In this document: in pieces, positions 14,105-30,896 of the stretch
How the letters are laid out: each line of letters opens with the position of its first letter
How positions within the stretch are numbered: position 1 is the first letter of the stretch
IMG/VR virus record: IMGVR_UViG_3300048856_000104
Span: 1-58,082 of that record
Length of the DNA stretch: 58,082 nucleotides
Strand: one strand, 5' to 3'
DNA from: a virus
Lineage: Duplodnaviria > Caudoviricetes
Position numbers and translations under genes: made by a program
The notes under the pieces: generated by a model
Seen by the model: only the letters and a program-made list of their open reading frames with translations
Database searches by the model: none
What the model was told of the DNA's origin: nothing

Positions 14105-14210
14105 GCGGTTCGGTTGGTAGCCGTAAGACATTCAAACATTACCCTGTACACCATCTTATGCGTTCTGCATTTGATCCAAGCTACCAACCTTTGGTGTGCA
14201 GGGTAATGTT
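14105..14210 (+). ncRNA. Structured leader or sRNA with a pseudoknot upstream of the replication initiator
   Basis: GGTTGGTAGC (14112-14121) pairs with GCTACCAACC (14180-14189); 19-bp stem 14135-14153/14192-14210 with one G-U. Confidence 0.7.
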
Positions 14211-14228
14211 ACTTAAGTAAATAAGATC

Positions 14229-15125
14229 ATGGCCAGACCTGAAAGGAACAATGTGGACTACTTCCCATTCTATTGTGAAGATGGTAAGAAGATGTTTTAC
14301 ATCGAGGAAACCTACGGTAATGATGGGTTTGCAACATTCATCAAGATCCTTCGTGAGCTTGCTAAAACTGATTACCACTACCTCGATCTATCTAAAAATA
14401 CCACCATGATGTTCCTTAGCGCCAAGTGTAAAATCACAAAGGATCTGCTTGAAAATATCATTAACGACCTGGTGGAACTCGGCAAGTTCAATGACATGCT
14501 ATGGAGAGAAAATAAGATCATTTGGTGTCAGGACTTCATCGATAGTGTTCAGGATGCTTATAAAAAACGAAATAACGATTGTATTACGTTCGATGGTTTA
14601 CTCCACCTTTTAGATGGTTTAGGTATCCGTAAACTTGGTTTAAGTGAAACTACAGTACCCGTAAAACCACAAAGAAAAGAAAAGGAAATAAAAGAAGAGA
14701 AAACTAAAGAAAAGGAGAGTAAAGAAAACGATCTAACACCCTCTGAATTGAACTTTGATCTTCGAGACAAAATCCTGAAAAATTTCAATTTCAATGAGGT
14801 GTCCAACTTCGATAAGCTTCGAGATGCATCAGATTTTTTAAAGTGCATTTCAATCGGTGATCGTCTTCAATATTTCGAAGACCAGATGGATGCTTATTTC
14901 GAATACAAAAAGATCACCAACGGCTTAGACTTCATTCATTCATTTAAAAAATTCCTTGGATCTCATGACCAGCTGTTCCTTGACGGAGCTTGGAACGCTG
15001 AGAACTGGATTAAAAAATTAGAAATCGAAAAATCAAAACCCAAAACCAATGGAAAAGCCAATTACCAAAATTCTGGAAGACGCTCACACCTCAACCCACC
15101 ATCAAATAGTTACACCAAACTATGA
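14229..15125 (+). CDS. Replication initiator (DUF4373/Lin1244-like)
   Basis: MARPERNNVDYFP...IEETYGNDG N-terminus; KEKEIKEEK linker; ATPase follows. Confidence 0.85.
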   Translation: MARPERNNVDYFPFYCEDGKKMFYIEETYGNDGFATFIKILRELAKTDYHYLDLSKNTTMMFLSAKCKITKDLLENIINDLVELGKFNDMLWRENKIIWCQDFIDSVQDAYKKRNNDCITFDGLLHLLDGLGIRKLGLSETTVPVKPQRKEKEIKEEKTKEKESKENDLTPSELNFDLRDKILKNFNFNEVSNFDKLRDASDFLKCISIGDRLQYFEDQMDAYFEYKKITNGLDFIHSFKKFLGSHDQLFLDGAWNAENWIKKLEIEKSKPKTNGKANYQNSGRRSHLNPPSNSYTKL

Positions 15126-15912
15126 TCACATCGAACTCAATGACGAGGAAGTTCAAGCCTGGACAGACTGGGCGTTAAGAATCGCTCGCAAAAAGAAAGC
15201 AGCTGCGATTGCTGAAATGGCCTATTCAAGAAAACTCATACAGCCTACCTATCAAGTCAAATTCAACTATGACCAACTGAAGGATTATCTGGTGAAAAAG
15301 CACAACATCGTTGATGCGACAGAAACTGACAAGATTCAACACTACATCGATTTCAGAGAAGAGTACTTTGTGATTGATGATGATAACCGTGAGATCTTTG
15401 AGATGCTGCTCATGTACTTTTCAAATGATCCATCTTTTGAACTTTCAGGCGAGTACAGCCTCAAAAAAGGAATACTAATCAACGGCCCGACGGGTTGCGG
15501 TAAAACCAAACTCATGAAGATCTTCAGCCAGAATACATTTCGGCCATTCATCACCACCTCAGCGCGAACCATTGCTGACTCGTATCAGGAAGATGGAATT
15601 GATGCACTCAACAAGTTCTCCAGCTTGCTTCCCGTATATCCTCAAAGGAATTTCGGATTCGATGCAATAGGACACTGTTTTGATGATTTAGGTACCGAAG
15701 ACGATAAAAAGAACTACGGAAACCAGGTAAATGTACTTCAGGACATCATCTACAAAGTATATGATCAAGAGCTCACAGGCTGGTTCCATATGACAACAAA
15801 TCTTGGTGGTCAAGAGATAGATTCCATCTACGGAACACGCATCAGAAGCCGTATGCGAGAAATGTATAACCAGATCATGTTCTCACCAACAGCAAAAGAT
15901 CGGAGGAAATAA
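15049..15912 (+). CDS. DnaC/IstB-like helicase-loader ATPase
   Basis: GPTGCGKT, FDDLG, TTNL, YGTRIRSR. Confidence 0.85.
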   Translation: MEKPITKILEDAHTSTHHQIVTPNYDHIELNDEEVQAWTDWALRIARKKKAAAIAEMAYSRKLIQPTYQVKFNYDQLKDYLVKKHNIVDATETDKIQHYIDFREEYFVIDDDNREIFEMLLMYFSNDPSFELSGEYSLKKGILINGPTGCGKTKLMKIFSQNTFRPFITTSARTIADSYQEDGIDALNKFSSLLPVYPQRNFGFDAIGHCFDDLGTEDDKKNYGNQVNVLQDIIYKVYDQELTGWFHMTTNLGGQEIDSIYGTRIRSRMREMYNQIMFSPTAKDRRK

Positions 15913-15915
15913 GCG

Positions 15916-16203
15916 ATGATGGAAGATGCAAATACAGCAATACTGGTGCTTTCAGGTAAGCATCCCTTTCAAATCGCGATGCAGGAAGCGCTACAGCAAA
16001 TTGAAGAAATAGATCTAAGGTCCTTAACCCGAGATCATGAAGGTGACATAACTGATGGTTATGAAGATGTTGTGGACATTGAGATTCAACAAAGACAGAT
16101 GAGAGTTCTTTTTATCTCCTCGGATCTGATCGGATACCCAAAGATGTTCGACGATATAGTGCCGCAAAACTTGTATAAACGCTTCCGAGAGGATCCATTC
16201 TAA
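15916..16203 (+). CDS. Hypothetical acidic protein
   Basis: ORF packing. Confidence 0.55.
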   Translation: MMEDANTAILVLSGKHPFQIAMQEALQQIEEIDLRSLTRDHEGDITDGYEDVVDIEIQQRQMRVLFISSDLIGYPKMFDDIVPQNLYKRFREDPF

Positions 16204-16241
16204 ATATTAACTAATTCCCAAACTGCACAACTAAAAAGAAA

Positions 16242-16469
16242 ATGGACAATTTATCAGTAAAATCAGACATGGATATCTTCATTGAGAAGTACCAACCGTC
16301 AAAATTCAAGAAATTAAAAAACAGCGTTGAGGTTCGTAGTGTCGTAGATGCCGAGAAAGCATCAAATAAAGCCACAGAATTAATCAACTCCCTTTCATTG
16401 GGGTTAGTGGTCGTTCGAGATGCGAACGCGGCTTGTAGAGGCGCATTTGAAGTTTGCAGGACTACCTAA
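16242..16469 (+). CDS. Hypothetical protein
   Basis: ORF with an A-rich start. Confidence 0.55.
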   Translation: MDNLSVKSDMDIFIEKYQPSKFKKLKNSVEVRSVVDAEKASNKATELINSLSLGLVVVRDANAACRGAFEVCRTT

Positions 16470-16473
16470 TACA

Positions 16474-17100
16474 TTATTTTAAAATAGGAGACAGGGCTTT
16501 GATGTAAATCTTCTCTGATTTGGCCGTGAGTGAAAAGGTTTGAAAATACTTATTACCAGATAAGTCCTGGTAATCTACGCGAAATGATACAGCCCAATAA
16601 AGCCTGTTGTAAAAAAGCTCGCCAACTGAGATATATAGATCAGCAAGTTCACTGTAATTTTCATCAATTAAGCTAACGTCTCCTGGCATAATACCGTTCA
16701 AAATACAAGTGTGCATTTGTGGCATTACGGAGAAACTTACGTTTCGTGCATGGTGCTTCAAAATTCTAAATTGAAGAAAGAGGTGAATTTTTATTTCATC
16801 GCCTATAGTAAAATCTGGATCGCCATATGGTTCAAGGGTAAAAATTGGCATGATCTCATTTCTAAATCGTTCTTGCTCAATTTTCGTAATTGCTTGCTGA
16901 TCCCGTTGTACGATTCGCTGTGATTGTAGCGTATGCCAAAGAAAAACTGCAGAGACAATAGCTACTAAGACCATGACCCAGTCGGCCAGTGATCCAATTG
17001 AGAATGCATTGTCGAAATAAAAGTTGAATGAGAACATAAACATCAATTGACTAGCAAGAATATAAAAATATTTTGATTTATGACAACACGCGAAATACAC
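16474..17100 (-). CDS. Membrane-anchored hypothetical protein (moron); true start probably near 17043
   Basis: GSLADWVMVLVAIVSAVFLW helix; opposite strand; AT-rich. Confidence 0.65.
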   Translation of the reverse strand: MYFACCHKSKYFYILASQLMFMFSFNFYFDNAFSIGSLADWVMVLVAIVSAVFLWHTLQSQRIVQRDQQAITKIEQERFRNEIMPIFTLEPYGDPDFTIGDEIKIHLFLQFRILKHHARNVSFSVMPQMHTCILNGIMPGDVSLIDENYSELADLYISVGELFYNRLYWAVSFRVDYQDLSGNKYFQTFSLTAKSEKIYIKALSPILK

Positions 17101-17499
17101 GAGCCTGTAAAAGACCTTTCAGAAAAGTACGAGCTTGATTGGACCAGATATTATCCGGAAAATCACCACTACACAGTTATAGCCATCCTAACTGGCTTGC
17201 CAATCGAGGAGATCAAAGCCGCATCACCGGTAACTGATTGCTGGGGTGGTCAGCGGTTCGTGGAGGTATTTCAAAAGCTTGGATTCAATGTAAGCCCCAG
17301 GTTCAAGAAGTTTGATCCGTACACAGAGTACCCGTGCTTGATGAGAAACAAGCGGACTGACATCAAAGAGCCTTACTGGTACCTGGAAGTTTATTATGAT
17401 GGCAAGGTTTACAGTGGCAACTGTTATTGCTCGCTTGAAAATTGGGTTAAGCAGCATCCCCAATGCAAAATCACATCCATGCTGCAGGTATTGCTTTGA
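17080..17499 (+). CDS. Hypothetical phage protein
   Basis: 139 aa ORF. Confidence 0.65.
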   Translation: MTTREIHEPVKDLSEKYELDWTRYYPENHHYTVIAILTGLPIEEIKAASPVTDCWGGQRFVEVFQKLGFNVSPRFKKFDPYTEYPCLMRNKRTDIKEPYWYLEVYYDGKVYSGNCYCSLENWVKQHPQCKITSMLQVLL

Positions 17500-17540
17500 T
17501 TTACCTATCTTGGATATAAGAAGAAATCTAACAAAAAAGT

Positions 17541-18449
17541 ATGCTCTGGAGAATAATCGCTCTGTACGATGAAATAAAGCTGCGAAGTAATAATCCGTCC
17601 TTTCTGGTGAAGATTCGATCTCTTAGGCCCATTATAAAAAATTCTTTCCTTATGGCTCTAAGTTCAATTGTTATACTTGATATTATCTTACCTGAATTTT
17701 TGAAGATTAATGGTACTTGGGAACGGGCTGAAGGCTTCTATTTGAAGGTTTGTTACTCGATAGTCGCTTCGACTATATTCTTTTATTTCAACCAACATTT
17801 ACCGAAAATGGATAAAAAGATAAGCTCATATTATTTTGAAGTGAGTAATATTAATAGAATAGTAGCTGAGTTAAAAGATATTTTGGTTAGAATCACAGAA
17901 GTAGGAAAGGATGGAGTGGATCCAGAGCAACTCTACTCTGATTGTTGTTCATTATATCCAGAAAAGCCTCCTTTGGCATTGGATTCCGATGACAGAACCT
18001 TCATATCCTGGGTTGCATTTCTTGAATATAAAAGTTATATTCTAAAAGGTATAGTCAGAGATTTGCTACCACTACATGAATCAATAAATCCGCTTATACT
18101 CGAGTGCTTACTCGGCATTGAAAATGTTTGTAATGAGATTAAAGAGGTGAAGCAAAACCCAGCAGAGCCAGACCCTCTGTATATTTATTTAGATAGTTTT
18201 CGCCTCTTAAATAGATATATGGTTGAACTTAAAAAATATAGCATCACTAAGTACGCCGACGTTGCATCAATTAATAACTATAGAAACCTAGTAAATGAAG
18301 TTAAACTCATTTTTCCCGCTGCTTACGCTTATAAAACTCGACGCCCGGATGTTACTTTTAACCGTGGTTTTTTAAAGAGAGCAGTAATTGTATTTGTGTT
18401 GACATTCTACATTCTGCAATACATGTTTATAAAGAGTCGATCAGCATAA
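17541..18449 (+). CDS. Membrane hypothetical protein (moron)
   Basis: AT-rich; TM segments; followed by a terminator. Confidence 0.65.
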   Translation: MLWRIIALYDEIKLRSNNPSFLVKIRSLRPIIKNSFLMALSSIVILDIILPEFLKINGTWERAEGFYLKVCYSIVASTIFFYFNQHLPKMDKKISSYYFEVSNINRIVAELKDILVRITEVGKDGVDPEQLYSDCCSLYPEKPPLALDSDDRTFISWVAFLEYKSYILKGIVRDLLPLHESINPLILECLLGIENVCNEIKEVKQNPAEPDPLYIYLDSFRLLNRYMVELKKYSITKYADVASINNYRNLVNEVKLIFPAAYAYKTRRPDVTFNRGFLKRAVIVFVLTFYILQYMFIKSRSA

Positions 18450-18480
18450 AAAAAAGCCCCTCATTTCTGAGAGGCTTTTT
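18448..18480. terminator. Bidirectional intrinsic terminator
   Basis: AAAAAGCCCCTCA-TTTC-TGAGAGGCTTTTT between convergent genes. Confidence 0.75.
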
Positions 18481-18493
18481 ATCGAGTTAAGAT

Positions 18494-19243
18494 CTATTTA
18501 GCTAGCTTATATCGGAATCCTGCAAACGATATTTCAAATGGGCCTACTGGAGGCGGCGCTAAAGACCAAGTTGGTTCAAAAGTTATCCGAACTTCATCAA
18601 ACTCATTTGTTTTGGTAGCGTCCACACCCCATATATGGACACCACCAGGGTTGCCAAATAAAATATCAAATCCACCACCACTGCCATTTAAATACCTGGT
18701 GCCTCCGGCTTCAGGTACTCTTTTGTTTAGCTTGGAATTCCAAAAACTTACATTTACTCCCAGTTTAGTACCCTTGTATGGGGAATAAACCTCAAGACCA
18801 AACCCAGTCACCATCTTAGACATTTTTATAATAAATATATGATCGGAACTATTTACTGATACAATAGGCGGGTGTGAATCTGTTACGCGTGGCACAACAG
18901 CCCATAAAGCCGTCTTCTCGTGAGTCTTTAGAGCTTTGCTCTCAAAGTATAGTGCTAAATCTTGATTGCAAACTGAATCCAGCAGGCTACCATTTTTGTA
19001 CTTTTCCATGCTCAGTGGCTTTAACTTAAGGTAGTTTTCGGTAGCTCGGCCAAAAGTACTTATCGAATCATTGTAATGGTAATTCTCGCCGGTGACAACC
19101 TCATAATAGCCGAAGTTTCCTGGATCCAATGGATGTGCCATTGACTTTACTGGCTTAAGGTCAACCTGCTCTTCTTTAGAACACGAGCTTAATGTCGCAA
19201 GTAGACCCACTGCGACAAGAACGTTAATGAAATGCTTTTTCAT
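18494..19243 (-). CDS. Lipoprotein (moron)
   Basis: MKK-hydrophobic-LSSC lipobox followed by SKEE. Confidence 0.8.
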   Translation of the reverse strand: MKKHFINVLVAVGLLATLSSCSKEEQVDLKPVKSMAHPLDPGNFGYYEVVTGENYHYNDSISTFGRATENYLKLKPLSMEKYKNGSLLDSVCNQDLALYFESKALKTHEKTALWAVVPRVTDSHPPIVSVNSSDHIFIIKMSKMVTGFGLEVYSPYKGTKLGVNVSFWNSKLNKRVPEAGGTRYLNGSGGGFDILFGNPGGVHIWGVDATKTNEFDEVRITFEPTWSLAPPPVGPFEISFAGFRYKLAK

Positions 19244-19391
19244 GTATACTTTGGTTTTTGATGCAGCGAAAATAGCGGATAATCAGGTGATTAATGTGCC
19301 TTGTAAACTGTTGTTACTTTGAATGTAACCTGTGGTGTAAAGCGGGAAAATAAGCGAGAAAGAGGTACCTGATTGAGGAGTTGCAGGTATG

Positions 19392-19452
19392 TAAAAAGAA
19401 AAGGGCAACCAATGCTGGCTACCCAATCCCTTACGCTCTCACGACAAATGTA
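19392..19452 (-). ncRNA. Putative short sRNA, GAGAGCG family copy A
   Basis: TACATTTG promoter, TGAGAGCGT, GGGTAGCC/GGTTGCCC hairpin, T-run; paralog at 23665-23730. Confidence 0.6.
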
Positions 19453-19538
19453 GCTCAATCTAAGTTATTGGCAAGTCGCTAAGCTTGTTTGTGTAAGAAG
19501 ATGTGAACATTTGTTCGACAACATGAGATTAAAATAAT

Positions 19539-19579
19539 TTAATGAGTTATTGACATATTGCGAATAATATTTATATTTG
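19539..19579 (+). promoter_or_regulatory. Palindromic operator, copy 2, with promoter
   Basis: TTAATG-agttattga-CATATT-GCGAATA, then TATATTTG at 19572. Confidence 0.7.
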
Positions 19580-19584
19580 ATCTA

Positions 19585-19725
19585 TACGAAGGACGCGGCC
19601 ACGTCAAATAAGATCTTGAATGTCTTTGGAGTGATGCTGGCCGGCTGAACTTCAAGGACATTTCTCATTTAAAGACCTTACATACACACAAACGACCCAG
19701 CCTGCTATGAGAATAGCGGGCTTTT
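19585..19725 (+). ncRNA. Putative loop-loop structured sRNA or leader ending in a terminator
   Basis: GACG-CGGCCA-CGTC hairpin; 14-bp stem 19619-19632/19649-19662 with TGGCCG in its loop; terminator AGCCTGCTAT/ATAGCGGGCT-TTT. Confidence 0.6.
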
Positions 19726-19746
19726 AAAGCTAAAAACCTTTTCATT

Positions 19747-19854
19747 ATGGAACTATTGATCATTCTGATCGCAGTTATTGCTGTAGGCATAATCGCATCA
19801 ATCGAAGGCGTATGGCATGCCGGAGAAGTGGACTCTAACGATGTAAACTTCTAA
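19747..19854 (+). CDS. 35 aa single-TM peptide (absent from the ORF track)
   Basis: MELLIILIAVIAVGIIASIEGVWHAGEVDSNDVNF*. Confidence 0.55.
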   Translation: MELLIILIAVIAVGIIASIEGVWHAGEVDSNDVNF

Positions 19855-19856
19855 TT

Positions 19857-19976
19857 ATGGCAAGCATCGGACAACACGGATCAGGGCACAATGCACCTGC
19901 CTGGAAAATCATAACGATCATCATCATTGCGGTAATCATTTTCTCTCCAGTCGTTTACAAAGCATTTGTGGGGTAG
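19857..19976 (+). CDS. 39 aa single-TM peptide (absent from the ORF track)
   Basis: MASIGQHGSGHNAPAWKIITIIIIAVIIFSPVVYKAFVG*. Confidence 0.55.
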   Translation: MASIGQHGSGHNAPAWKIITIIIIAVIIFSPVVYKAFVG

Positions 19977-19980
19977 CGAT

Positions 19981-20208
19981 ATGGAATATAAAACAACCAT
20001 CAAACAGATCGAAGAAGTGATGATTCTGCAAATACGAGCATTGGATTCACGAGTTAGTGTAGAAGCAGCACGGGCGCTCCATCAACTTAAGCTGCACCTG
20101 ATCAACCAGCATCAAAACGAGCAGCTGGTTAAACATGCTGAAAACCTAGTTCGACCAAATCTTTTAATCCGAATTATTGACTGCATTAAGACCCCATTTA
20201 CATCATGA
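19981..20208 (+). CDS. Hypothetical protein
   Basis: ATG at 19981; stop overlaps the next ATG. Confidence 0.55.
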   Translation: MEYKTTIKQIEEVMILQIRALDSRVSVEAARALHQLKLHLINQHQNEQLVKHAENLVRPNLLIRIIDCIKTPFTS

Positions 20209-20441
20209 AAAGATTATTGATTCTCTGCACCATCGTATTTGCATTTGGCTACGTTAGCGGATGCATCAAGAACCACACGCTCTATTTTTCAGAATGGGGT
20301 TACAACAGCCAGAAGTACGTATCCATCTGGTGGATAATCATGGGTGGCTCGGTTACGCTCTTCTGCGCTGCTAGTTACTTCATAGACAAGCTGATGGATG
20401 ACCACCAGGAAGAGAAAGAGGCTTATAAGGAAAATTACTAA
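20205..20441 (+). CDS. Small membrane protein
   Basis: Two hydrophobic segments. Confidence 0.6.
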   Translation: MKRLLILCTIVFAFGYVSGCIKNHTLYFSEWGYNSQKYVSIWWIIMGGSVTLFCAASYFIDKLMDDHQEEKEAYKENY

Positions 20442-20480
20442 CAACAATCAAACACTTAACGCAATGGATTATGGACTAGC

Positions 20481-20732
20481 TCAAAGCTGAACGAAGCTTT
20501 CTTCAAACAAGATCTCATCCATTCTATCCAGATGTTCTTGAAAGTCGGAACTTTTATTAGAAACAACCTTGTTTTTGAAGTCAACTATGCATATCACATC
20601 TGCTTTCGCATTCTTTAATGAAGTTTCCAGGAGTAAAATGTCTTCATGTGTGCACCGGTCTTGAATTCTATAGCCCAAGTCCGGAGTATAATATATTATT
20701 CTTACCATGGGATGATTTTGGGTAAGAGCCAC
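20481..20732 (-). CDS. Small hypothetical protein (moron), similar to 30899..31114
   Basis: CIVDFKNK...DFQEHLD motif. Confidence 0.55.
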   Translation of the reverse strand: MALTQNHPMVRIIYYTPDLGYRIQDRCTHEDILLLETSLKNAKADVICIVDFKNKVVSNKSSDFQEHLDRMDEILFEESFVQL

Positions 20733-20845
20733 AAAAAATATGCGAAGGTTGTCTATGTAAATACGGATTTAAACAAGTGAAAACACCTGATAAAAAATGC
20801 ACTTAATTCAAAATTTCCAGATTAACCCGCATTGTAATTATTGAT

Positions 20846-21025: not shown

Positions 21026-21162
21026 ACGAGGGCTTAGAGGCAGTCATTTCAAAATGGTTTGACGGCCTTGAATGGGGGAGTAAAGAGCCTGAGCAGCTTG
21101 ATCTGTTTAGTAGTAAACGGGGGCCCACTGATTTTAGCCCCCGTAAGTCCCAAGAACTATAA
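21022..21162 (+). CDS. 46 aa peptide with a QLDLF motif (absent from the ORF track)
   Basis: ATGA overlap with the previous ORF; MNEGLEAV...EQLDLFSS...*. Confidence 0.5.
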   Translation: MNEGLEAVISKWFDGLEWGSKEPEQLDLFSSKRGPTDFSPRKSQEL

Positions 21163-23746: not shown

Positions 23747-24391
23747 CTACTGCAAAAATTTTCCTCGAAAGGTCTGTTTGATCAATTCATATAAAAGTTT
23801 GGCGTTTTCTTGGGTAACTCCTAGTTGAATAACTATGCTTAGAATGATACCTACAAACAGATTTTGCCAGTCGAACTTATTCAGTTTTGTTGTCATCTCT
23901 AGAAGATGGTCCAGCTTACTGTTGATTGCATCTATTTGTTGAGACTGGAGCGGAATCGAACGAATATTGGCTTTAATGTAGTTGAATTTTACAGTTATAT
24001 CTAAATATTCCTCGTGGCTGAATTTATTACTAGACTCTTCAACTGATGTCATTAAATAGCTCGCCTCTGCGAGTATTCTGGCCCACTTATCTTCTATGGA
24101 CACCTCTCGTTCTAAGTATGTTAGCCATTTTTTAAATTCAAGGACCATTTCGGACCAATTGATTGCATATTCTTCGTTTACCGTGTCTTTAGCTGGCGAG
24201 TATCGCATGTAGAAATCACGGCTCGTAATACCGCTTTCGGAAATTGCAAAATGGTAATCTGTGTTTGGAAAATACAAGTTTAAGTTTTGACCATACTCTT
24301 CAACTTCAAAGTTAGATGGTGTAAAGTAGTTTGTTGAATTGATTAAGTCAAAGAGCGTGTTTTTCTGAGAGCGGAGTAAAATCATAATCAA
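23747..24391 (-). CDS. Hypothetical protein (moron)
   Basis: 214 aa AT-rich ORF on the opposite strand. Confidence 0.7.
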   Translation of the reverse strand: MIMILLRSQKNTLFDLINSTNYFTPSNFEVEEYGQNLNLYFPNTDYHFAISESGITSRDFYMRYSPAKDTVNEEYAINWSEMVLEFKKWLTYLEREVSIEDKWARILAEASYLMTSVEESSNKFSHEEYLDITVKFNYIKANIRSIPLQSQQIDAINSKLDHLLEMTTKLNKFDWQNLFVGIILSIVIQLGVTQENAKLLYELIKQTFRGKFLQ

Positions 24392-24444
24392 AATTTTTGT
24401 TAAGCAAGATATAATTCCATCTCTAGCCCGCCAAATAAATGTAG

Positions 24445-24485
24445 AATATGATATTACAACATATTGCGAATATTTCCTACCTTTA
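24445..24485 (+). promoter_or_regulatory. Palindromic operator, copy 3, with promoter
   Basis: AATATG-atattacaa-CATATT-GCGAATAT, then TACCTTTA at 24478. Confidence 0.7.
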
Positions 24486-24490
24486 ACCTA

Positions 24491-24961
24491 ATGAATGGAC
24501 GGTACGCTGCTTTAATGGTCAATGTCTTGCATAAAGAATACCCGGAAATCGCTTCGATCATTACTAAAAAGATCAACGATAGCCTGCCGGAATACTCTTT
24601 AACAGATCTTCAGTATATCGATCAGATCGTAACAAGCTTCAAAAAGGAAAAGGGGATCACCCATGATAAATGGACTAACACCGTAAAAGGAAACCCGAAA
24701 GGCAAGGTTACCGGCATAAGGGAAGAGATGGTTGCTGTAGTGCTGATGTTCTACCATCCTGAAAAGCTGATTCAATTGACGAAGGAACGAACCAGGCAAG
24801 GAGTGATTACGCAGCTGGCTAAGGTTACCGGAGCACCTAACGAGGTTCTATCCAAATCAGCAACGAACATACCGCTGAAGTTTCGGGCATACGTGGATTT
24901 TAGAAACGAAGTATATCGGCTCTATGAGCTGATCAAAGAAGAAAACCAATTTTTTAAATAA
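24491..24961 (+). CDS. Hypothetical protein
   Basis: ATG at 24491 directly after the promoter. Confidence 0.65.
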   Translation: MNGRYAALMVNVLHKEYPEIASIITKKINDSLPEYSLTDLQYIDQIVTSFKKEKGITHDKWTNTVKGNPKGKVTGIREEMVAVVLMFYHPEKLIQLTKERTRQGVITQLAKVTGAPNEVLSKSATNIPLKFRAYVDFRNEVYRLYELIKEENQFFK

Positions 24962-25170
24962 TGGCAAAGCAAACTAAATCCAAATTCCCGGTCGATCGGG
25001 AAAAGCAAAGTGAGGCGTTCAAGAACGGCCTTGTAAGTGTAAACATTTACAGTACTGATCCAGGAATAAATATCGTCATCAAAGGCGATTACTCTGAAGC
25101 GGTACATACAGATCTGCATAACGCAGTAGATGATGTGCTGAAATTCCACGAAGCTAAAGATCTTAAATAA
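24961..25170 (+). CDS. Hypothetical protein
   Basis: TAATG coupling on both sides. Confidence 0.6.
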   Translation: MAKQTKSKFPVDREKQSEAFKNGLVSVNIYSTDPGINIVIKGDYSEAVHTDLHNAVDDVLKFHEAKDLK

Positions 25171-25541
25171 TGAAACAGTTAAAATTTGCGGTACTGATGA
25201 TTGGTCTCATGATCACGTCATCACTTTGCTCCATCCATGCAAAGGCACAGGAAAAAACGGATATTGAGGTAGTGGCAGTGAATCCAGTATTCACAGGTGA
25301 GGAAAAGAACTTGACAGACAGTCTTTTGTCTGTTGGAAAGGCTTTGACTGATCCCGCGTTGAAAGCTACGGTTATCGATGCGGTAAATGTCATTAGGGCC
25401 ACGCCCCAGCATGGTGGTATAGATGATTGGTATGCCTGGATCATTGCAGCGGCCGGCGCGATCTTCGGAGTTTATCAGTACGTGAAGCGAGCGCTAAGTA
25501 AAAAAGAACCCGAACCTACACCCAGGGGCTTTCCATTATAA
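25170..25541 (+). CDS. Exported or membrane protein
   Basis: Signal-peptide-like N-terminus (AKA-Q) and a C-terminal TM. Confidence 0.65.
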   Translation: MKQLKFAVLMIGLMITSSLCSIHAKAQEKTDIEVVAVNPVFTGEEKNLTDSLLSVGKALTDPALKATVIDAVNVIRATPQHGGIDDWYAWIIAAAGAIFGVYQYVKRALSKKEPEPTPRGFPL

Positions 25542-25597
25542 CTTAAAGATATTTTTAAGTCCTGCAGAGTGGGAATCCACGAAGTTGCAGGCATAAC

Positions 25598-25628
25598 AAA
25601 AAAAGCTTCGTTGATTCGAGGCTTTTTT
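25598..25628. terminator. Intrinsic terminator
   Basis: AAAAAAGCTTCG-TTGATT-CGAGGCTTTTTT. Confidence 0.75.
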
Positions 25629-25684
25629 AATGTTTGTGTGTGCTAAAAATATTAGTAATATTGCGACAAGAAAGGAGGTTTGGT

Positions 25685-26011
25685 ATGCTAGACGATTTGA
25701 AGGATAAAAACAGCGAGGCTTATAAGGCAAAGCTGAAGATTGCGCTCAAGGCATTCGAGACAGGATCCTTGATTGTGTCTACCGAAACTCAAAAGTGGTA
25801 CACGCCTCGTGAATTCATGGAGTGCAACGAAAGGGTGCAAGTCAAAACGTATGGCATGCAGGAGTATTCAAACTTTACGCTCCATTATGCCCAAAATGCA
25901 ATAAAGAAAAAACTTGAAGATCTACATCGAGCACAGGCGGAATTTGACGCTATCGTCGAGAAGGTGCTCACCGCTTTTGAACTCCATCCTAAAAAGGCGA
26001 TGAAGAAATAA
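25685..26011 (+). CDS. Hypothetical protein
   Basis: Likely start at MLDDLK. Confidence 0.6.
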   Translation: MLDDLKDKNSEAYKAKLKIALKAFETGSLIVSTETQKWYTPREFMECNERVQVKTYGMQEYSNFTLHYAQNAIKKKLEDLHRAQAEFDAIVEKVLTAFELHPKKAMKK

Positions 26012-26110
26012 TGCTAAAATTGACTCTGCCTCGGGCAGATTACCTTTAAAAACGTTTGGACAATAGTCGATTAAATCATTAAATTCATTCGTAATCAACT
26101 TGATAGGTTT

Positions 26111-27256
26111 ATGGATCTTTTATATGGAGCAATAATTGGGGTAGTTATCACTGAATTGTACAATTACCTAAAGAGAAAGTATATCCGTGAACGGAAGGTT
26201 TCAAGTTTAAGAAAAGTTTTCAAGAATAAATTCGAGATCGATAATGGCATTATAGCATTGGACCATGCTATCCCATATTATTTAAAGGAAAATATACACT
26301 TGAGAGATTCAGGTAAGTCACTGTTTATTGAAATACCTTCAACATACCGTGAAGAGCTGAAGCGGAATGGTTTTGAGTCTCGAGGGAATACCATGTTTTC
26401 TGGTAGTTCGGATTTGTCAGAACTGCTTGGAAACTTGATGCTTGAGAATTCAAGAGAGGTTATTGAATTAGCTGCCTCGGAAACTGCGCAGGATTTTCTT
26501 AAAGATCTTAATCAAGGTCATACTAGATTCAACAACCCAATGTTTGGAGTTTATAAGATACGATCTGAACGTATTTCCCAAGATGAAAATTCAGGATTTA
26601 GCATTGATTTTTATCAGACCGACTATTTTACGCATAGAACATTCGTAAACATTTACAACAAGTACAAAGATGTTCCTGGTAAATTTGAAATCAAAAGCCT
26701 ACAGGATTTAAATTTATATTCACCATTTCTTGCATCATTTGGTCTTGGAAATTTCTTAATTATAAACCAGGGGAATGGGGATGAAGTAATTATCGGCAAA
26801 CGTTCAATGGGTGTTGTGGTAGATAAGGGGAAACTTCATTTTAGCATGAATGAAGCTTTTAGCATGAATGATGTTGATGAATATGGTAATCCGAGTTTTT
26901 CTGCTTGCCTTTTTCGAGGTTTGGAAGAGGAGTTAGGTATCAGTCCTATTTTTAAGAAGTATGTAACAAGCCACGAGTTCCTAGATCTGGTTTTAGGTAT
27001 TGATAGGCTTGAAATGGGAATTACTAGTATAGCCCGAATAGGGCTAAATGACACATTTACATTCGAGACGCTTAAAGAACTTTATTCAATTGCCAAAGAC
27101 AGCAAACTTGAGACAACCTCTTTGCTCGCTCTGCCCATCAAAAATATAGATGTATTTCTAAAAGAGAATTCTACCAATGTAAGTCAAGGTTGTAAAATGG
27201 CTCTAATGGCTTTAAATGCTCGATATAAAGCCGGGTACCTGAGAGAAGAAGTATGA
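26111..27256 (+). CDS. Membrane-anchored protein with a degenerate Nudix-like domain (moron)
   Basis: N-terminal TM; RGLEEELGI Nudix-box helix; AT-rich. Confidence 0.65.
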   Translation: MDLLYGAIIGVVITELYNYLKRKYIRERKVSSLRKVFKNKFEIDNGIIALDHAIPYYLKENIHLRDSGKSLFIEIPSTYREELKRNGFESRGNTMFSGSSDLSELLGNLMLENSREVIELAASETAQDFLKDLNQGHTRFNNPMFGVYKIRSERISQDENSGFSIDFYQTDYFTHRTFVNIYNKYKDVPGKFEIKSLQDLNLYSPFLASFGLGNFLIINQGNGDEVIIGKRSMGVVVDKGKLHFSMNEAFSMNDVDEYGNPSFSACLFRGLEEELGISPIFKKYVTSHEFLDLVLGIDRLEMGITSIARIGLNDTFTFETLKELYSIAKDSKLETTSLLALPIKNIDVFLKENSTNVSQGCKMALMALNARYKAGYLREEV

Positions 27257-27291
27257 TCATACGAGTATAATAGATCTATCATCGCGTCAGT

Positions 27292-27333
27292 TATATGCTT
27301 TTTTGACATACCACGAATATTTACTTAATTTTA
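27292..27333 (+). promoter_or_regulatory. Palindromic operator, copy 4 (before terminase)
   Basis: TATATG-cttttttga-CATACC-ACGAATAT, then TAATTTTA. Confidence 0.6.
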
Positions 27334-27358
27334 CTCATTATTACTTGATTTTACATCA

Positions 27359-27835
27359 ATGGCATGGGAAACCAATAAGAAGACAATCAAAAGAATTGAG
27401 AAGTCTGCAGCTGAAAAACGCAAGAAATTTATCAAAGACTGTAATGCTGATCCGGATCTGAAAGCGTTTGACGCAAAGAAGAGGTACGCTTTGCACGCGC
27501 TTAAGCTTTGCCGTGGGAATATTTCCAACGCAAGCAAAATGATCAGCCTAAGCAGACGAACTATTCACCAGTACATGAGTGATGATCCTGATTTTGATGA
27601 AATGGTGAAGTTGATCAAGTTCGAGGTTCTTGATCAGGTTGAAGACAAGCTTCTTCAGAACTGTGATGCTGGTAAAGAAACATCGATTATCTACTATTTG
27701 AACTGCCAGGGTAAAGATCGTGGCTATGGTAATGCGCTTAAGGTGGATGGTAAGATCAATAACATTAACTACAATGTGCCAGTGACAGCTGACGAGGTGA
27801 AAGATATCGCCAAAGCTTTAGAAGACGAGTTTTAA
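27359..27835 (+). CDS. terS: Terminase small subunit
   Basis: HTH and IIYYL..QGKDRGY motif; directly upstream of terL. Confidence 0.8.
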   Translation: MAWETNKKTIKRIEKSAAEKRKKFIKDCNADPDLKAFDAKKRYALHALKLCRGNISNASKMISLSRRTIHQYMSDDPDFDEMVKLIKFEVLDQVEDKLLQNCDAGKETSIIYYLNCQGKDRGYGNALKVDGKINNINYNVPVTADEVKDIAKALEDEF

Positions 27836-27838
27836 GGA

Positions 27839-29398
27839 ATGCTGACTAAGGATGAAATAAAGAAGATCAAGGTGGCTACAGTCAAATGTAAGTCCGACCT
27901 TTTATTTCAGACCAGGTATTTGTTTAAAAAGAACACGAATAAGAAATTTATTATCGGTGATCATCACCAGCAGATCGCCAATGTGCTTGAGCTGGTGCTC
28001 AAAGGCGAACTTACTAAAGTGATGATCAACATTGCACCCAGGTATGGTAAGACAGAGCTTGCTGTAAAGAATTTCGTAGCACATGCGCTGGCTTTAAACG
28101 CTTCTGCTAACTTCATCCATCTTTCTTACTCAGATGATTTGGCTCTCGATAACTCTGAGGCTATCCGGGACATGGTAGAGACAGAAGCTTACCAGCAGAT
28201 GTTTCCTCATGTGCAGATTAAGCAGGATTCCGATGCTAAGAAGAAATGGTATACAACTGAAGGTGGCGGTGTTTATGCCCGGGCAGCAGGCGGCCAGGTA
28301 ACTGGATTCGGTGCGGGTAAGGTGGATGAGGAGAAAACTCCTGTGGAGTTTGAGGAAGAGGCCGAGTTTATTACTGAGCTGGACGGCATGCTTTCCGACC
28401 TGAACATCAAGTCTGGATTTAATGGCGCCCTGATCATAGATGACCCGATCAAGCCAGATGACGCAGATTCGGATACCATCAGGGAGCGTATTAACAATCG
28501 TTTCAATTCAACCATCCGGAATAGGGTAAACAGCAGGAATACCCCGATCATCATCATCATGCAGCGCCTGCATGAGAATGATCTCTGTGGATACCTGATG
28601 AGTCAGGAGGCTTATACCTACGACCTGGAAGAGGCATTGGCTGATAAAACCAAGTGGTACGTTCTTAGCATCCCAGTGATCAAGAACTACGGTGAAGAAG
28701 GTAAGGAGGAAGCATTGTGGCCATTCAAGCACACGCTTGAAGAGCTTAAGGAAATGGAAGAGAAGTTTCCTATTGTGTTTGGCCGGCAGTATATGATGAA
28801 TCCACAGCCCAAAGAAGGATTTCTTTATGGGCATTTCAAGACCTACCGACCTGGCTTTCTGCCTTTTTCTACCAGGCCCAAGGTGCGTAAAGCCTACATC
28901 GATACAGCTGATACCGGTACCGACTATCTATGTTCGATCGTCTACGATGAACTTGATATCGGAAACTTCGTGACAGACGTCATCTATACCCAGGCGAGCA
29001 TGGAAACTACCGAAGTGGAAGTCACCAAGCAGCTGGCCCGGGAAGAGGTTGATCGGGCGTTATTTGAAAGTAACAATGGTGGTCGTGGCTTCGCCCGTAA
29101 CGTTGAAAAAGGGCTCCGGCTCATTGGCAACAAAAAGACTAAAGTTGAGTGGTTCCATCAAAGCAATAATAAGGAGGTGAGGATTTTCACGAAGTCTGCT
29201 GATGTCATGAACCTGACGCATTTTCCTGAAGGATGGGAGAAGTTGTGGCCAGCTTTTTATAAGGCATTGAAAACATATAAAGCGGCTGGGAAGAATGCGC
29301 ATGATGATGCCGAAGATGCGCTTACCGGAACTACTGAGGATTTTGGTAATAAGGTGATTGTGACGGCGCAAAGCAAATCAAAATTAGGATTCTATTAA
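27839..29398 (+). CDS. terL: Terminase large subunit
   Basis: APRYGKT, IIDDP, MQRLHENDL, YIDTA, HDDAEDA. Confidence 0.95.
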   Translation: MLTKDEIKKIKVATVKCKSDLLFQTRYLFKKNTNKKFIIGDHHQQIANVLELVLKGELTKVMINIAPRYGKTELAVKNFVAHALALNASANFIHLSYSDDLALDNSEAIRDMVETEAYQQMFPHVQIKQDSDAKKKWYTTEGGGVYARAAGGQVTGFGAGKVDEEKTPVEFEEEAEFITELDGMLSDLNIKSGFNGALIIDDPIKPDDADSDTIRERINNRFNSTIRNRVNSRNTPIIIIMQRLHENDLCGYLMSQEAYTYDLEEALADKTKWYVLSIPVIKNYGEEGKEEALWPFKHTLEELKEMEEKFPIVFGRQYMMNPQPKEGFLYGHFKTYRPGFLPFSTRPKVRKAYIDTADTGTDYLCSIVYDELDIGNFVTDVIYTQASMETTEVEVTKQLAREEVDRALFESNNGGRGFARNVEKGLRLIGNKKTKVEWFHQSNNKEVRIFTKSADVMNLTHFPEGWEKLWPAFYKALKTYKAAGKNAHDDAEDALTGTTEDFGNKVIVTAQSKSKLGFY

Positions 29399-29408
29399 AA
29401 TTCACATA

Positions 29409-30776
29409 ATGGCTGAAGAAGTAAAAAAAGAGATTGACAGTACCGACGTTCGCTCGTTGCTGCTGGGTGGTTTGGTTGACGAGGCAAAAGCTTTGTTTTC
29501 CACCAGGAAGGATAAGGTTGAAGCGGCGTTAAAAGAGTGGAATGTCGCTACACATAAGATCCATGATCGTCCGAAAAAGTATGTCGATAATGAAGAGGTT
29601 CCGCAAGCAAAGTTAGCTTTACCATATCAAAGAAAGATCGTGCAGTCAGCTGTGGCCTTCCTTTTTGGAAAGCCTGTGAAGTTGATCCAGCAAAGCGAGG
29701 ATACAGATAAAGCGTTCATGCTTATTGATAAGTTATGGACTGAAATGCGAATGGCTACATTAAACAGGAAGAATGCAAGAACACTGTTCTCCCAAACCGC
29801 ATGTGCAAAGCTGTTCGTTGAATATAGAGATCCTGACTTAGAAGGCGCCGATGGCTTCAACAGCGTAAAATGTATTCTCCTAGACAAGAAGAATGGCAAT
29901 GATCTGTATTACAAAAAAGACCAATACGGCGTAATGCAATGCATTGCCCGTGGCTATACATCTAAACTAGGGGACAAGTCAACAGAGCACTTCGATGCTG
30001 AATTTGCTGATATCATCATCTCATGCAAGAAAACTGATGGCTTTTGGCAAGTTGATACAGCCACCAACCTAGCTAAGAAGATTCGGTACAGCTATTATGA
30101 GCAGGAAGAAACAGAGTGGGATACAGTGCAGGCTATTATTGAGCGTCAAGAAATGCTGATCTCAAAGCGATCGGACAACAACGACTATACTGCAGATTCT
30201 ATTTTGGTTCTTACCGGTGATGTGGAATCGCTTCCAGGTAAAGAGGAAACTGGAAAAGTAGTGCAACTGAAAGGACAGGGGGCAAGTGCATCCTATTTAT
30301 CTCCAACGATGGCCATTGATATGGTTAAAGACGAGCGCACAACTCTGGATAACTACATCCTTTATTTCACCGATACCCCGGACCTATCCAGTGAGCAGCT
30401 GCGAAGTATAGGGCAAGATAGCGGCAAGGCGCTTGAAATGAAATTTTTCCCGGCCATTCTTAAAGCCATGGACAAGCTGGAGCTGTTTGAGGAGATGATC
30501 GATCGGGAAATCAACATTCTAAAATCCATGATCAAGAATATCATAGATGTAAGTCCAGCAATGGCTGAGGAACTCAAAAACCTACGAATTAGCTATGAGT
30601 TTGGTAATCCGCTTCCAGATAACATCAAAGAATTTATGGAAACATTGTCAACGGCTGTCGGAGGTAAGCCGATCATGAGCCGTAAAAAAGCCGTTGAGCT
30701 CAATCCTCTTGTCAAAGATGCAGATGCTGAAAATGCTCAAATGGATAGTGAAGAAATATCAACCATTGAAGATTAA
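29409..30776 (+). CDS. Portal protein (SPP1 gp6-like)
   Basis: AFLFGKPV, TPDLS, SGKALEM; follows terL. Confidence 0.9.
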   Translation: MAEEVKKEIDSTDVRSLLLGGLVDEAKALFSTRKDKVEAALKEWNVATHKIHDRPKKYVDNEEVPQAKLALPYQRKIVQSAVAFLFGKPVKLIQQSEDTDKAFMLIDKLWTEMRMATLNRKNARTLFSQTACAKLFVEYRDPDLEGADGFNSVKCILLDKKNGNDLYYKKDQYGVMQCIARGYTSKLGDKSTEHFDAEFADIIISCKKTDGFWQVDTATNLAKKIRYSYYEQEETEWDTVQAIIERQEMLISKRSDNNDYTADSILVLTGDVESLPGKEETGKVVQLKGQGASASYLSPTMAIDMVKDERTTLDNYILYFTDTPDLSSEQLRSIGQDSGKALEMKFFPAILKAMDKLELFEEMIDREINILKSMIKNIIDVSPAMAEELKNLRISYEFGNPLPDNIKEFMETLSTAVGGKPIMSRKKAVELNPLVKDADAENAQMDSEEISTIED

Positions 30777-30812
30777 TATGTTGAAAAACCATATTGCGAA
30801 TATGTATCTTTG
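30775..30812 (+). promoter_or_regulatory. Palindromic operator, copy 5, with promoter
   Basis: AATATG-ttgaaaaac-CATATT-GCGAATATG, then TATCTTTG at 30805. Confidence 0.72.
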
Positions 30813-30815
30813 TGT

Positions 30816-30896
30816 ATAGCGTACTCCACGTTAGTTGGTTTTAGTTTAGTTTTAAAGGTTAGTACAGCCGGGTGGAGTGGTTCCCATCCGGTTTTT
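30816..30896 (+). ncRNA. Putative sRNA of about 80 nt with a GU-rich core and terminator
   Basis: Follows the promoter; ACTCCAC (30823-30829) is complementary to GTGGAGT (30872-30878); terminator GCCGGGTGG/CCATCCGGT-TTTT. Confidence 0.6.

What the first reader, a model, noticed from the sequence alone, without database searches (positions are those of the whole stretch)
14105..30896. Three operator-linked RNAs share one architecture without sharing sequence
Seen: after operator copies 1, 2 and 5 the transcript opens with a small hairpin whose loop is complementary to a segment in a larger downstream hairpin (GGTTGGTAGC/GCTACCAACC; CGGCCA/TGGCCG; ACTCCAC/GTGGAGT). Inference: a family of pseudoknotted or kissing-loop sRNAs or attenuators. 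It is conceptually similar to P4 CI and P1 C4 RNA control but is not recognisably either, so it may be an undescribed RNA layer of phage regulation.
Basis: partly seen in the sequence, partly recalled or inferred. Interest (0 to 1): 0.8.

Follow-up and report, generated by a model that had tools for sequence, protein, structure and literature searches.

The report
Kissing-loop leader RNAs in Bacteroidota prophage
Two of the three short RNAs flagged in this prophage are real folded leaders in which the tip of a small first hairpin pairs with the tip of a larger second hairpin, a design kept through matched mutations in related phages, absent from RNA catalogues, and most often placed in front of DNA-replication starter genes.

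Summary
The window is a 58-kb provirus with Bacteroidota-type promoters. RNA 1 (14106-14228, before the replication initiator gene) is far beyond chance (0 of 200 shuffles). In 7 homologous leaders both helices are kept by matched changes (98% of cells paired; 12 pairs changed on both sides; 0 of 500 shuffles). RNA 2 (19584-19726) is weaker (6-bp loop pairing, 1 of 200), but one relative replaces it with an unrelated 11-bp pairing. RNA 5 (30817-30897) fails: its 7-nt pairing is marginal (19 of 300) and absent from 4 relatives that keep the same terminator. The same layout, with unrelated sequence and usually an intrinsic terminator as second hairpin, heads the replication module in many more distant phages: 14 promoter-anchored hits against 1.0 in controls. 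No Rfam family matches. Function is untested. My best guess is a cis-acting gate on transcription or RNA fate of replication genes, with the loop pairing acting as a private address. This scan has noted the same class on other DNA seven times; I found no description in the papers searched. It is a new variant of a known kind (kissing-loop or pseudoknot leaders).

The parts
14052..14105 (+). Promoter 1. It holds the conserved 33-nt block 14052-14084, the operator core ACATACTGCGAATAT at 14069-14083, and the -7-like box TAATTTAG at 14098-14105.
   Evidence: kept in 6 relatives; the -7 consensus TAnnTTTG is from PMC7366714 (passage).
14106..14228 (+). Leader RNA 1. H1 stem is 14105-14109 with 14120-14124. 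A is 14112-14121. The invariant linker L1 is 14122-14134. H2 5' arm (B) is 14135-14153. Small hairpin C is 14158-14170. A' is 14180-14189, inside the H2 loop. H2 3' arm (B') is 14192-14210. No U tract follows.
14229..15125 (+). Replication initiation protein gene (phrog_2562), the first gene after leader 1.
19550..19579 (+). Promoter 2, with operator core at 19553-19567 and the -7 box TATATTTG at 19572-19579.
19584..19726 (+). RNA 2. H1 is 19592-19605, with loop CGGCCA at 19596-19601. H2 is 19618-19663, with TGGCCG at 19638-19643 at its tip. A CA-rich single strand lies at about 19678-19694. A separate intrinsic terminator is at 19699-19722, followed by UUU. Small hydrophobic ORFs start at 19747.
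30772..30812 (+). Promoter 5, with operator core at 30789-30803 and the -7 box TATCTTTG at 30805-30812.
30817..30897 (+). RNA 5: a small 5' hairpin, a G/U-rich linker and a terminator at 30866-30893. ACTCCAC (30823-30829) pairs with GTGGAGT (30872-30878), but this pairing is not conserved. It is a promoter-terminator cassette and not a member of the kissing-loop class.
24459..24473 (+). Operator copy 3. No structured leader follows it.
27306..27320 (+). Operator copy 4, ahead of the small terminase gene. No structured leader follows it.

Best explanation
Leader 1 and RNA 2 belong to an uncatalogued class of promoter-proximal leader RNAs of temperate Bacteroidota phages. Shown: the transcript starts with a small hairpin (H1). 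The H1 loop (word A, 6-12 nt) is complementary to word A' in the oversized loop of a larger second hairpin (H2). Both pairings are kept by matched mutations while the sequences drift. The element sits after a host-type promoter and most often before a replication-initiator gene. Inferred: it works in cis as a gate on how much transcript, or how stable a transcript, reaches the downstream genes. In most members H2 is an intrinsic terminator 14-31 nt before the start codon. A' is transcribed before the 3' arm of H2, so the A:A' pairing can form first. I commit to the reading that this loop pairing hinders or delays completion of H2, giving read-through as in the guanidine-IV riboswitch, and that anything masking H1 or A' lets H2 close. 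The opposite direction, in which pairing clamps the big loop and strengthens the terminator, is not excluded. In the window's own leader 1, H2 has no U tract and the start region is free. There the gate would act through RNA fate or a bound factor that reads the invariant linker and lower H2 stem. The word A differs between leaders of one genome and between close relatives, so it behaves as a private address that avoids cross-talk.
For: - **Structure is real.** For leader 1, 0 of 200 shuffles reach the observed score.
- **Covariation in leader 1.** In 7 homologous leaders A:A' is 100% paired, with 2 pairs changed on both sides. B:B' is 97% paired, with 10 such pairs. 0 of 500 shuffles reach this, and the slid controls pair only 33-50% of cells.
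- **RNA 2.** The relative G005 replaces CGGCCA/TGGCCG with an 11-bp pair, GCATCTGACTT/AGGTCAGATGC.
- **Same layout upstream of rep in distant phages.** Of 28 distinct 135-nt regions upstream of rep homologues, 9 score 0 of 100 shuffles. Eight of these 9 have a non-coding gap of at least 125 nt; for L020 the script returned no gap. The other 19 score 13-100 of 100.
- **Promoter-anchored scan.** There are 14 hits in 68 related loci against 1.0 in the shuffled control. In 327 unrelated loci there are 4 hits against 6.0. Nine further leaders were tested: 8 scored 0 of 200 and 1 scored 1 of 200.
- **H1.** A stem encloses A in 17 of 19 leaders, at a mean of -3.3 against -1.2 kcal/mol for shuffled flanks.
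- **Strand.** G-U pairs occur on the + strand.
- **Link to replication.** Leader-1 homologues precede three unrelated initiator families. The leader DNA is 80-92% identical although its flanks do not match.
- **Folding order.** A:A' is the minimum-energy fold of the prefixes ending at 14191-14200. B:B' takes over at 14211.
- **Precedent.** In the guanidine-IV riboswitch a loop kiss hinders the full terminator stem (PMC11611296, passages).
- **Different addresses in one genome.** G001 uses GGTTGGTAGC, CGGCCA and GGGTTGCGC.
Against: - No transcript, 5' end or termination data exist; no RNA run was listed.
- Promoters and start sites are inferred from motifs only.
- Leader 1 and RNA 2 have no U tract right after H2, so termination cannot be their mode.
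- In several terminator-type members the loop spacers (3 nt and 0-1 nt in L009, L010 and L017) fit a compact pseudoknot in which both helices coexist. That would favour stabilising the terminator, not blocking it.
- RNA 2's own pairing is only 6 bp. The promoter-anchored scan has a background of about 1.2 hits per window.
- G001 and G002 carry the same words as the window, so only G005 is informative. In G005 the second helix is weak (8 of 200).
- Copy 5 fails.
- The covariation sets are small: 7 and 4 sequences.
Confidence: 0.5

Rival explanations
1. Trans-acting immunity or incompatibility RNA, in the manner of P4 CI, P1 c4 or plasmid copy-control RNAs. The H2 hairpin, terminated or processed, would be a stable RNA whose loop A' captures the H1 loop of new transcripts from the same or an incoming related phage, setting replication-gene expression. 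The fast-changing word A would be the specificity determinant. A window-specific version: RNA 2 pairs with the invariant linker of leader 1.
For: Among 7 close leaders, variation in A sits at two central positions with four variants, always compensated. The element is tied to replication initiators. The leader-1 linker AAGACATTCAA (14125-14135) is exactly complementary to 19616-19626 in RNA 2. These are the only two exact copies in the window, and 1 of 500 shuffles reach this length. The match is kept in G002 (0 of 500).
Against: In cis the two loops sit on one molecule, so self-pairing should outcompete trans pairing unless the RNA is processed, and nothing shows processing. By eye I saw no convincing internal or antisense promoter across members; only L010 has a -7 box in its linker. 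The linker/RNA 2 match drops to 9 nt in G001 (29 of 500) and is absent in G005. G003, G004 and G006 keep the linker without a detectable RNA 2 homologue. No match to Rfam's models.
Confidence: 0.17
2. 5' stabiliser or processing element. The compact fold ties down the 5' end and shields the mRNA, or the released short RNA, from 5'-end-dependent RNases. Alternatively the 19-20 bp H2 helix is a double-strand RNase site that sets mRNA half-life.
For: A starts within a few nt of the inferred start site in leader 1. Leader 1 and RNA 2 have no terminator function at H2. H2 of leader 1 is a 19-20 bp near-perfect helix. The translation start region stays unstructured.
Against: A simple 5' hairpin would be enough, and this does not explain the conserved long-range loop pairing. 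It does not explain the U tracts after H2 in most members. It does not explain the invariant 13-nt linker.
Confidence: 0.15
3. Loading site for a phage or host factor on the nascent RNA, like nut or put. The fold recruits or modifies RNA polymerase so that it reads through downstream terminators.
For: The invariant linker and lower H2 stem, next to freely covarying upper helices, suggest sequence-specific recognition. The position is directly after co-regulated promoters. Strong terminators lie inside the + strand gene blocks, at 18451-18480, 25599-25628 and 30866-30893.
Against: No antiterminator-like protein was found among the 43 window ORFs scanned against PHROGs, Pfam or NCBIfam. Each gene block has its own promoter, so read-through is not obviously needed. 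Distant members share no linker sequence.
Confidence: 0.1
4. A DNA-level element: paired inverted repeats serving as protein-binding sites, or a single-strand origin signal next to the replication genes.
For: It lies next to replication initiator genes.
Against: The pairs include G-U, which would be A-C mismatches on the other strand. The same leader precedes three unrelated initiator families, which does not fit initiator-specific sites. It always follows a promoter and is usually followed by a U tract.
Confidence: 0.03
5. Chance complementarity. This applies to copy 5 only.
For: ACTCCAC is not over-represented. The interleaved test gives 133-141 of 200. The direct 5'-region-against-terminator test gives 19 of 300 in the window and 71-186 of 300 in 4 relatives. 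G001 and G005 keep GTGGAGT, and G002 and G003 keep the loop GAGTGGTTCC, yet none of the four has a partner.
Against: A score of 19 of 300 is borderline. The partial overlap with the terminator arm would suit an antiterminator.
Confidence: 0.8

Closest known systems
Guanidine-IV riboswitch (mepA motif)
   Same: Two hairpins after a promoter whose loops kiss. The second hairpin is part of an intrinsic terminator. The kiss hinders completion of the terminator stem without sharing its strands (PMC11611296, passages read).
   Different: Guanidine-IV has conserved loop nucleotides that bind a ligand, and it precedes guanidine exporter genes. Here the loop words are fully complementary (6-12 bp), differ in every lineage, show no shared ligand pocket, and precede phage replication genes. 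No Rfam model matched.
Rep mRNA leader pseudoknot with antisense Inc RNA of IncI-alpha, IncB and IncL/M plasmids (ColIb-P9 repZ)
   Same: A long-range loop pairing in the leader of a replication-initiator gene acts as a switch. I saw only the titles in the reference list of PMC10724649; the mechanism is recalled.
   Different: In those plasmids the pseudoknot touches the rep ribosome site, depends on a leader peptide and is blocked by an antisense RNA. Here the start region is free. The 20-codon ORF inside leader 1 lacks its ATG in G002, G004, G005 and L176 (4 of 7). No antisense promoter was evident.
Phage P4 CI RNA and P1/P7 c4 RNA
   Same: A stable hairpin RNA made from the leader of an early operon has a loop word complementary to a word elsewhere in the same transcript. 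The words differ between heteroimmune relatives. This is recalled, not read here.
   Different: Those RNAs are processed, act in trans, and have targets on both sides. Here there is one partner and no sign of processing. No Rfam model matched.
Countertranscript-driven attenuator of pT181 and promoter-proximal terminator units such as lambda PR'-6S-tR'
   Same: A terminator lies between promoter and first gene and gates a replication or late operon. For pT181 I saw only the title in the reference list of PMC10724649. Lambda is recalled.
   Different: pT181 uses an antisense RNA and a pre-emptor that shares the terminator arm. Lambda uses the protein Q. Neither has a 5' hairpin loop paired to the terminator loop.

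Membership tests
Any Rfam 15 family | Score at or above the family's gathering threshold. | tested here: not met
   0 matches in the whole window and in 20 related loci. With the E-value threshold on the three RNAs, only noise appeared: microRNA and snoRNA models at E 0.11-7.7, far below their gathering scores.
Guanidine-IV riboswitch (mepA) | Kissing loops between a first hairpin and the terminator-forming hairpin. | tested here: met
   Searches show the architecture only.
Guanidine-IV riboswitch (mepA) | Conserved loop nucleotides, model match, and guanidine-exporter gene context. | tested here: not met
   The loop words differ in every lineage. No Rfam hit. The downstream genes are replication initiators.
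IncI-alpha/IncB rep leader pseudoknot | The pseudoknot partner lies at or next to the rep ribosome-binding region. | tested here: not met
   A' and B' end 14-31 nt before the start codon, and that stretch is unpaired.
IncI-alpha/IncB rep leader pseudoknot | A conserved leader peptide whose translation opens the structure. | tested here: not met
   The ATG at 14158 opens 20 codons, but it is absent in G002, G004, G005 and L176 (alignment A3).
IncI-alpha/IncB rep leader pseudoknot | An antisense RNA transcribed across the leader. | tested here: inconclusive
   I saw only imperfect -7-like words on the minus strand by eye, and they are not kept in G001 or L176. No transcript data.
P4 CI / P1 c4 antisense RNAs | Sequence and structure match to the known RNAs. 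| tested here: not met
   No Rfam match.
P4 CI / P1 c4 antisense RNAs | Processing to a stable small RNA that acts in trans on two target words. | not testable with these tools
   No RNA run was listed. Only one partner word per leader was found.
Lambda-type PR'-tR' unit with Q | A Q-like antiterminator gene and its binding element at the promoter. | tested here: inconclusive
   No antiterminator family appeared among the 43 window ORFs scanned. Many of them have no family at all.

The most novel reading that the evidence does not exclude
Bacteroidota phages use a programmable, address-coded RNA lock on their replication genes. The hypervariable loop word pair A/A' is an RNA-level immunity or incompatibility determinant. 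It acts in cis, and between co-resident related genomes in trans. Changing two bases would then create a new specificity group, an RNA analogue of plasmid incompatibility that has not been described for phages of this phylum.
Probability: 0.2. Interest if true: 0.85.

Novelty: new variant of a known kind. Interest (0 to 1): 0.68.

Why it matters
Gene control in Bacteroidota phages is almost unexplored, and these hosts lack Shine-Dalgarno-based translation control. A recurring, sequence-free RNA design placed before replication initiators of at least three unrelated families would be a general control point for prophage replication in abundant gut and environmental bacteria. Because only the architecture is conserved, covariance-model catalogues miss it. 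The design is also simple enough to be reused as an orthogonal, addressable regulator. The compensatory-mutation experiment that would decide its function is straightforward.

Tried and rejected
- **RNA evidence.** The look-up of sequencing runs on 13500-20500, kind rna: no RNA holder listed.
- **Near-identical phage in INPHARED.** None.
- **Operator motif scan of IMG/VR**. It returned 89 single matches, apparently chance, and was not used.
- **14-mer GCCGTAAGACATTC scans** of viral contigs and genome contigs. Only L176 and L230 were true. The single genome-contig scan was thus largely wasted, and host names were not obtained that way.
- **The longer pattern** found only 6 viral and 3 metagenome stretches.
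- **RNA 2 3'-part pattern.** It found only the 3 known relatives.
- **Window-wide unanchored scans** for big-loop terminators or interleaved helices are no better than controls.
- **RNA.duplexfold of whole RNA 2 against leader 1** was uninformative because it allows huge internal loops. It was replaced by a longest-complement test.
- **Third copies of word A.** There is a 12-nt copy at 56877-56888 in the window and one in G006. Two of 7 genomes at about 0.1 each is compatible with chance.
- **TTGAATGTCTT in the large terminase genes of G001, G003 and G004** encodes the conserved FECLYQQ motif, so I judged it coincidental.
- **Papers.** Four searches listed no title or abstract describing this element. 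Only listings and abstract starts were read. Supplements are closed, so the start-site tables of PMC7366714 could not be used to check the distance from box to start.
- **Dropped rows.** L036-L038 (weak rep matches) were left out. L013-L015 and L031 were dropped as duplicates.
Full report
**Setting**

The window is a complete IMG/VR provirus record of 58,082 bp.
- A CI-like repressor (HTH plus S24 peptidase) lies at 585-1223 on the minus strand, and an integrase at 56880-58082 on the minus strand.
- Between them lie + strand blocks: recombination and helicase genes up to 14049; a replication initiator (14229-15125, phrog_2562) and a DnaC-like loader; many unknown ORFs; then small and large terminase, portal and head genes from 27359.
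- The closest named relatives by large terminase are Bacteroides fragilis phages, at 46% identity.
- Promoters match the Bacteroidota -7 box TAnnTTTG (PMC7366714, passage read).

**The 'operator'**

CATAYTGCGAATAT-like words occur five times, all on the + strand, at 14069, 19553, 24459, 27306 and 30789.
- Three of them lie in a 33-nt repeat family.
- Each sits just upstream of, or overlaps the upstream part of, a -7-type box.
- No copy was found outside 14069-30805, so none lies next to the CI-like gene. I read the word as the site of a phage middle or late regulator and not as the CI operator. That is inference.
- Related proviruses carry variants of the word at the same promoters.

**Checking the observation**

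All three complementary word pairs exist at the stated places. A 5' small hairpin plus a larger second hairpin is predicted for all three RNAs.

I scored the best pair of interleaved helices (order A, B, A', B') by the energy of the weaker helix, against 200 dinucleotide shuffles.

| RNA | Weaker helix (kcal/mol) | Shuffles reaching it |
|---|---|---|
| Leader 1 | -16.7 | 0 of 200 |
| RNA 2 | -9.9 | 1 of 200 |
| RNA 5 | fails | 133 of 200 |
| Leader after operator 3 | fails | 100 of 200 |
| Leader after operator 4 | fails | 63 of 200 |

A window-wide unanchored scan is no better than shuffles (84 against 76-106). Leader 1 is the only clear outlier there.

A promoter-anchored scan without any U-tract rule returns leader 1, RNA 2 and one minus-strand hit at 32929. 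The control mean is 1.2.

**Leader 1 in relatives**

Close relatives were found through the portal protein (records G001-G005) and a leader pattern (L176, which is G006).
- The leader is 80-92% identical in DNA in all five of G001-G005, while the flanking coding sequence does not match.
- In the 7-sequence alignment, counting pairs for the pseudoknotted structure gives 98.1% of cells paired and 12 pairs with changes on both sides. 0 of 500 shuffles reach this. Slid controls pair 33-50%.
- A:A' is 100% paired. Compensated variants sit at two central positions: GGTTGGTAGC, GGTTGGCAGC, GGTTGCCAGC and GGTTGTCAGC, each with its matching partner.
- B:B' has 10 compensated pairs, mostly in its upper half.
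- A third small hairpin in the H2 loop also changes with compensation.
- By contrast, the 13-nt linker between A and B (CGTAAGACATTCA) is nearly invariant: G001 and L176 each depart at one position. The lower H2 stem is also nearly invariant.
- No U tract follows H2, and the 16-20 nt before the start codon are unpaired.
- The genes behind the leader differ. They are phrog_2562 in the window, a DnaD-like initiator of phrog_19658 in G001, and phrog_1408/2149 initiators in G003. By alignment of the first codons, G002 and L176 resemble G001, and G004 and G005 resemble G003.
- So one leader serves three unrelated replication-initiator families.

**RNA 2 in relatives**

Homologues exist in G001, G002 and G005 only.
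- G001 and G002 keep both words unchanged, which is uninformative.
- G005 keeps the CA-rich stretch and terminator but has an unrelated 5' domain. There an 11-bp pairing (-16.0 kcal/mol) replaces the 6-bp one, and the interleaved second helix is weaker (8 bp; 8 of 200 shuffles).
- This is one independent replacement: supportive but thin.

**RNA 5 in relatives**

- Four relatives keep the promoter, a G/U-rich linker and the terminator. The loop GAGTGGTTCC is invariant among the window and these four.
- Their 5' parts differ and none has a partner for the loop.
- Interleaved tests give 56-141 of 200.
- A direct test of the 5' region against the terminator gives 19 of 300 in the window and 71-186 of 300 in the 4 relatives.
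- In G004 a tRNA-Met gene sits between the same promoter and a related terminator.
- RNA 5 is a promoter-terminator cassette and not a member of the class.

**The wider class**

The window's initiator type has relatives in 35 IMG/VR loci.
- I tested the 135 nt upstream of the gene in 28 distinct regions. These come from L004-L035 with four duplicates removed; L036-L038 were left out as weak matches.
- Nine regions score 0 of 100 shuffles, and 19 score 13-100 of 100.
- Eight of the nine have a non-coding gap of at least 125 nt; for L020, which has only 135 nt upstream, the script returned no gap. L009 and L012 are near-identical, so there are 8 independent cases.
- Their sequences are unrelated to leader 1 and mostly to each other.
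- A stricter scan required a TAnnTTTG box, a word within 2-34 nt of it, a hairpin with a loop of 8-55 nt followed by at least 5 T in 8, and the partner word in the loop. It finds 14 non-redundant promoters in 68 related loci against 1.0 with the word region shuffled. In 327 unrelated loci it finds 4 against 6.0.
- The new hits lie about 300-370 nt upstream of the initiator, before a small ORF of 60-77 aa that precedes it in those phages. One lies before another gene in G001.
- Of 9 such leaders, 8 score 0 of 200 shuffles and 1 scores 1 of 200.
- L010 and L017 are homologous and differ by compensated changes in both helices.
- Word A lies in the loop of a small stem in 17 of 19 leaders, at a mean of -3.3 against -1.2 kcal/mol for shuffled flanks. 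Seven of the 19 are individually at or below 5 of 100.
- No Rfam family matches these loci.

**How it may work**

Shown:
- the fold and its conservation;
- its place after a promoter;
- its association with replication initiators;
- the usual identity of H2 with a terminator 14-31 nt from the start codon;
- different words in different leaders of one genome.

Inferred: a cis-acting gate.
- A' is made before the 3' arm of H2. Folding of growing prefixes of leader 1 shows A:A' as the best fold until B' is complete.
- In the guanidine-IV riboswitch a loop kiss hinders completion of the terminator stem without sharing its strands (PMC11611296). I take this as the most likely direction.
- The spacers in L009, L010 and L017 (3 nt and 0-1 nt) also fit a compact pseudoknot that would stabilise the terminator. 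The direction is therefore open.
- Leader 1 and RNA 2 cannot act by termination at H2. Their invariant linker and lower stem point to a bound factor or to RNA fate.

**A possible trans link**

- The leader-1 linker word AAGACATTCAA is exactly complementary to 19616-19626 in the 5' arm of H2 of RNA 2. These are the only two exact copies in the window, and 1 of 500 shuffles reach this length.
- The match is kept in G002 (0 of 500), shortened in G001 (9 nt, 29 of 500) and absent in G005.
- G003, G004 and G006 keep the linker without an RNA 2 homologue.
- This cannot explain the linker's invariance, and it remains a lead.

**Comparison and novelty**

- The element works most like known kissing-loop or pseudoknot leaders: guanidine-IV, the plasmid rep leaders and the P4/P1 immunity RNAs.
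- It fails the defining features of each that I could test; see the membership table.
- Four paper searches listed nothing describing it; I read listings and abstract starts only.
- Earlier notes of this same scan report the same class on seven other genomes. They are unchecked AI notes and not independent evidence, but my tests on separate data agree with them.
- I rate it a new variant of a known kind. The existence of the structure is near certain for leader 1, likely for RNA 2 and unlikely for RNA 5. The mechanism is unproven.

Noticed in passing
window 14125-14135 and 19616-19626: The nearly invariant linker of leader 1 (AAGACATTCAA) is exactly complementary to the 5' arm of the large hairpin of RNA 2. 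These are the only two exact copies in the window. The match is kept in G002, reduced to 9 nt in G001 and absent in G005. RNA 2 might act on leader 1 in trans, or both may share a factor-binding word (AAGACATT also occurs in sense in G005's RNA 2).
   Followed up: partly
window 56877-56888: The 12-nt word AAGCTACCAACC, which contains A' of leader 1, recurs exactly across the integrase stop codon. G006 also has a third copy of its own variant of the word, while G001-G004 do not. This is compatible with chance.
   Followed up: partly
L133 2895-2967 (record G004): A tRNA-Met (CAT) gene sits between the homologue of promoter 5 and a terminator related to the one the other relatives share. This portal-downstream promoter-terminator cassette can therefore carry different small RNAs.
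   Followed up: partly
window 30876-30885 and relatives: The terminator loop GAGTGGTTCC of RNA 5 is invariant in the window and four relatives, although the stem covaries. The loop itself may be functional.
   Followed up: no
window 14069, 19553, 24459, 27306, 30789: The five operator words all lie at promoters that restart + strand transcription after a terminator or a minus-strand insert. None was found outside 14069-30805, so none is near the CI-like repressor gene. They look like sites of a phage middle or late regulator whose gene was not identified.
   Followed up: partly
window 19747-19977: Two small hydrophobic ORFs of about 35 and 39 aa follow the terminator of RNA 2.
   Followed up: no
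window 11755-13089: A PAPS-reductase-like gene (phrog_12882, E 1e-170) lies in the early operon.
   Followed up: no
L008, L010, L022, L033, L034 (about 45-55 nt after the leader terminator): In many distant relatives a conserved small ORF of 60-77 aa, with a C-terminal motif like LDKSTAIKLAK, lies between the kissing-loop leader and the replication initiator gene. Its function is unknown.
   Followed up: no
G001 31319, G003 25540, G004 22239: The word TTGAATGTCT(T/C), antisense to the leader-1 linker, lies in the large terminase genes, where it encodes FECLYQQ. It is not present in the window's terminase. I judged it coincidental.
   Followed up: partly
window 14219-14228 and 19606-19615: The 10-nt word AAATAAGATC is shared in sense between the start region of the initiator gene and the linker of RNA 2 (4 of 500 shuffles).
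   Followed up: no
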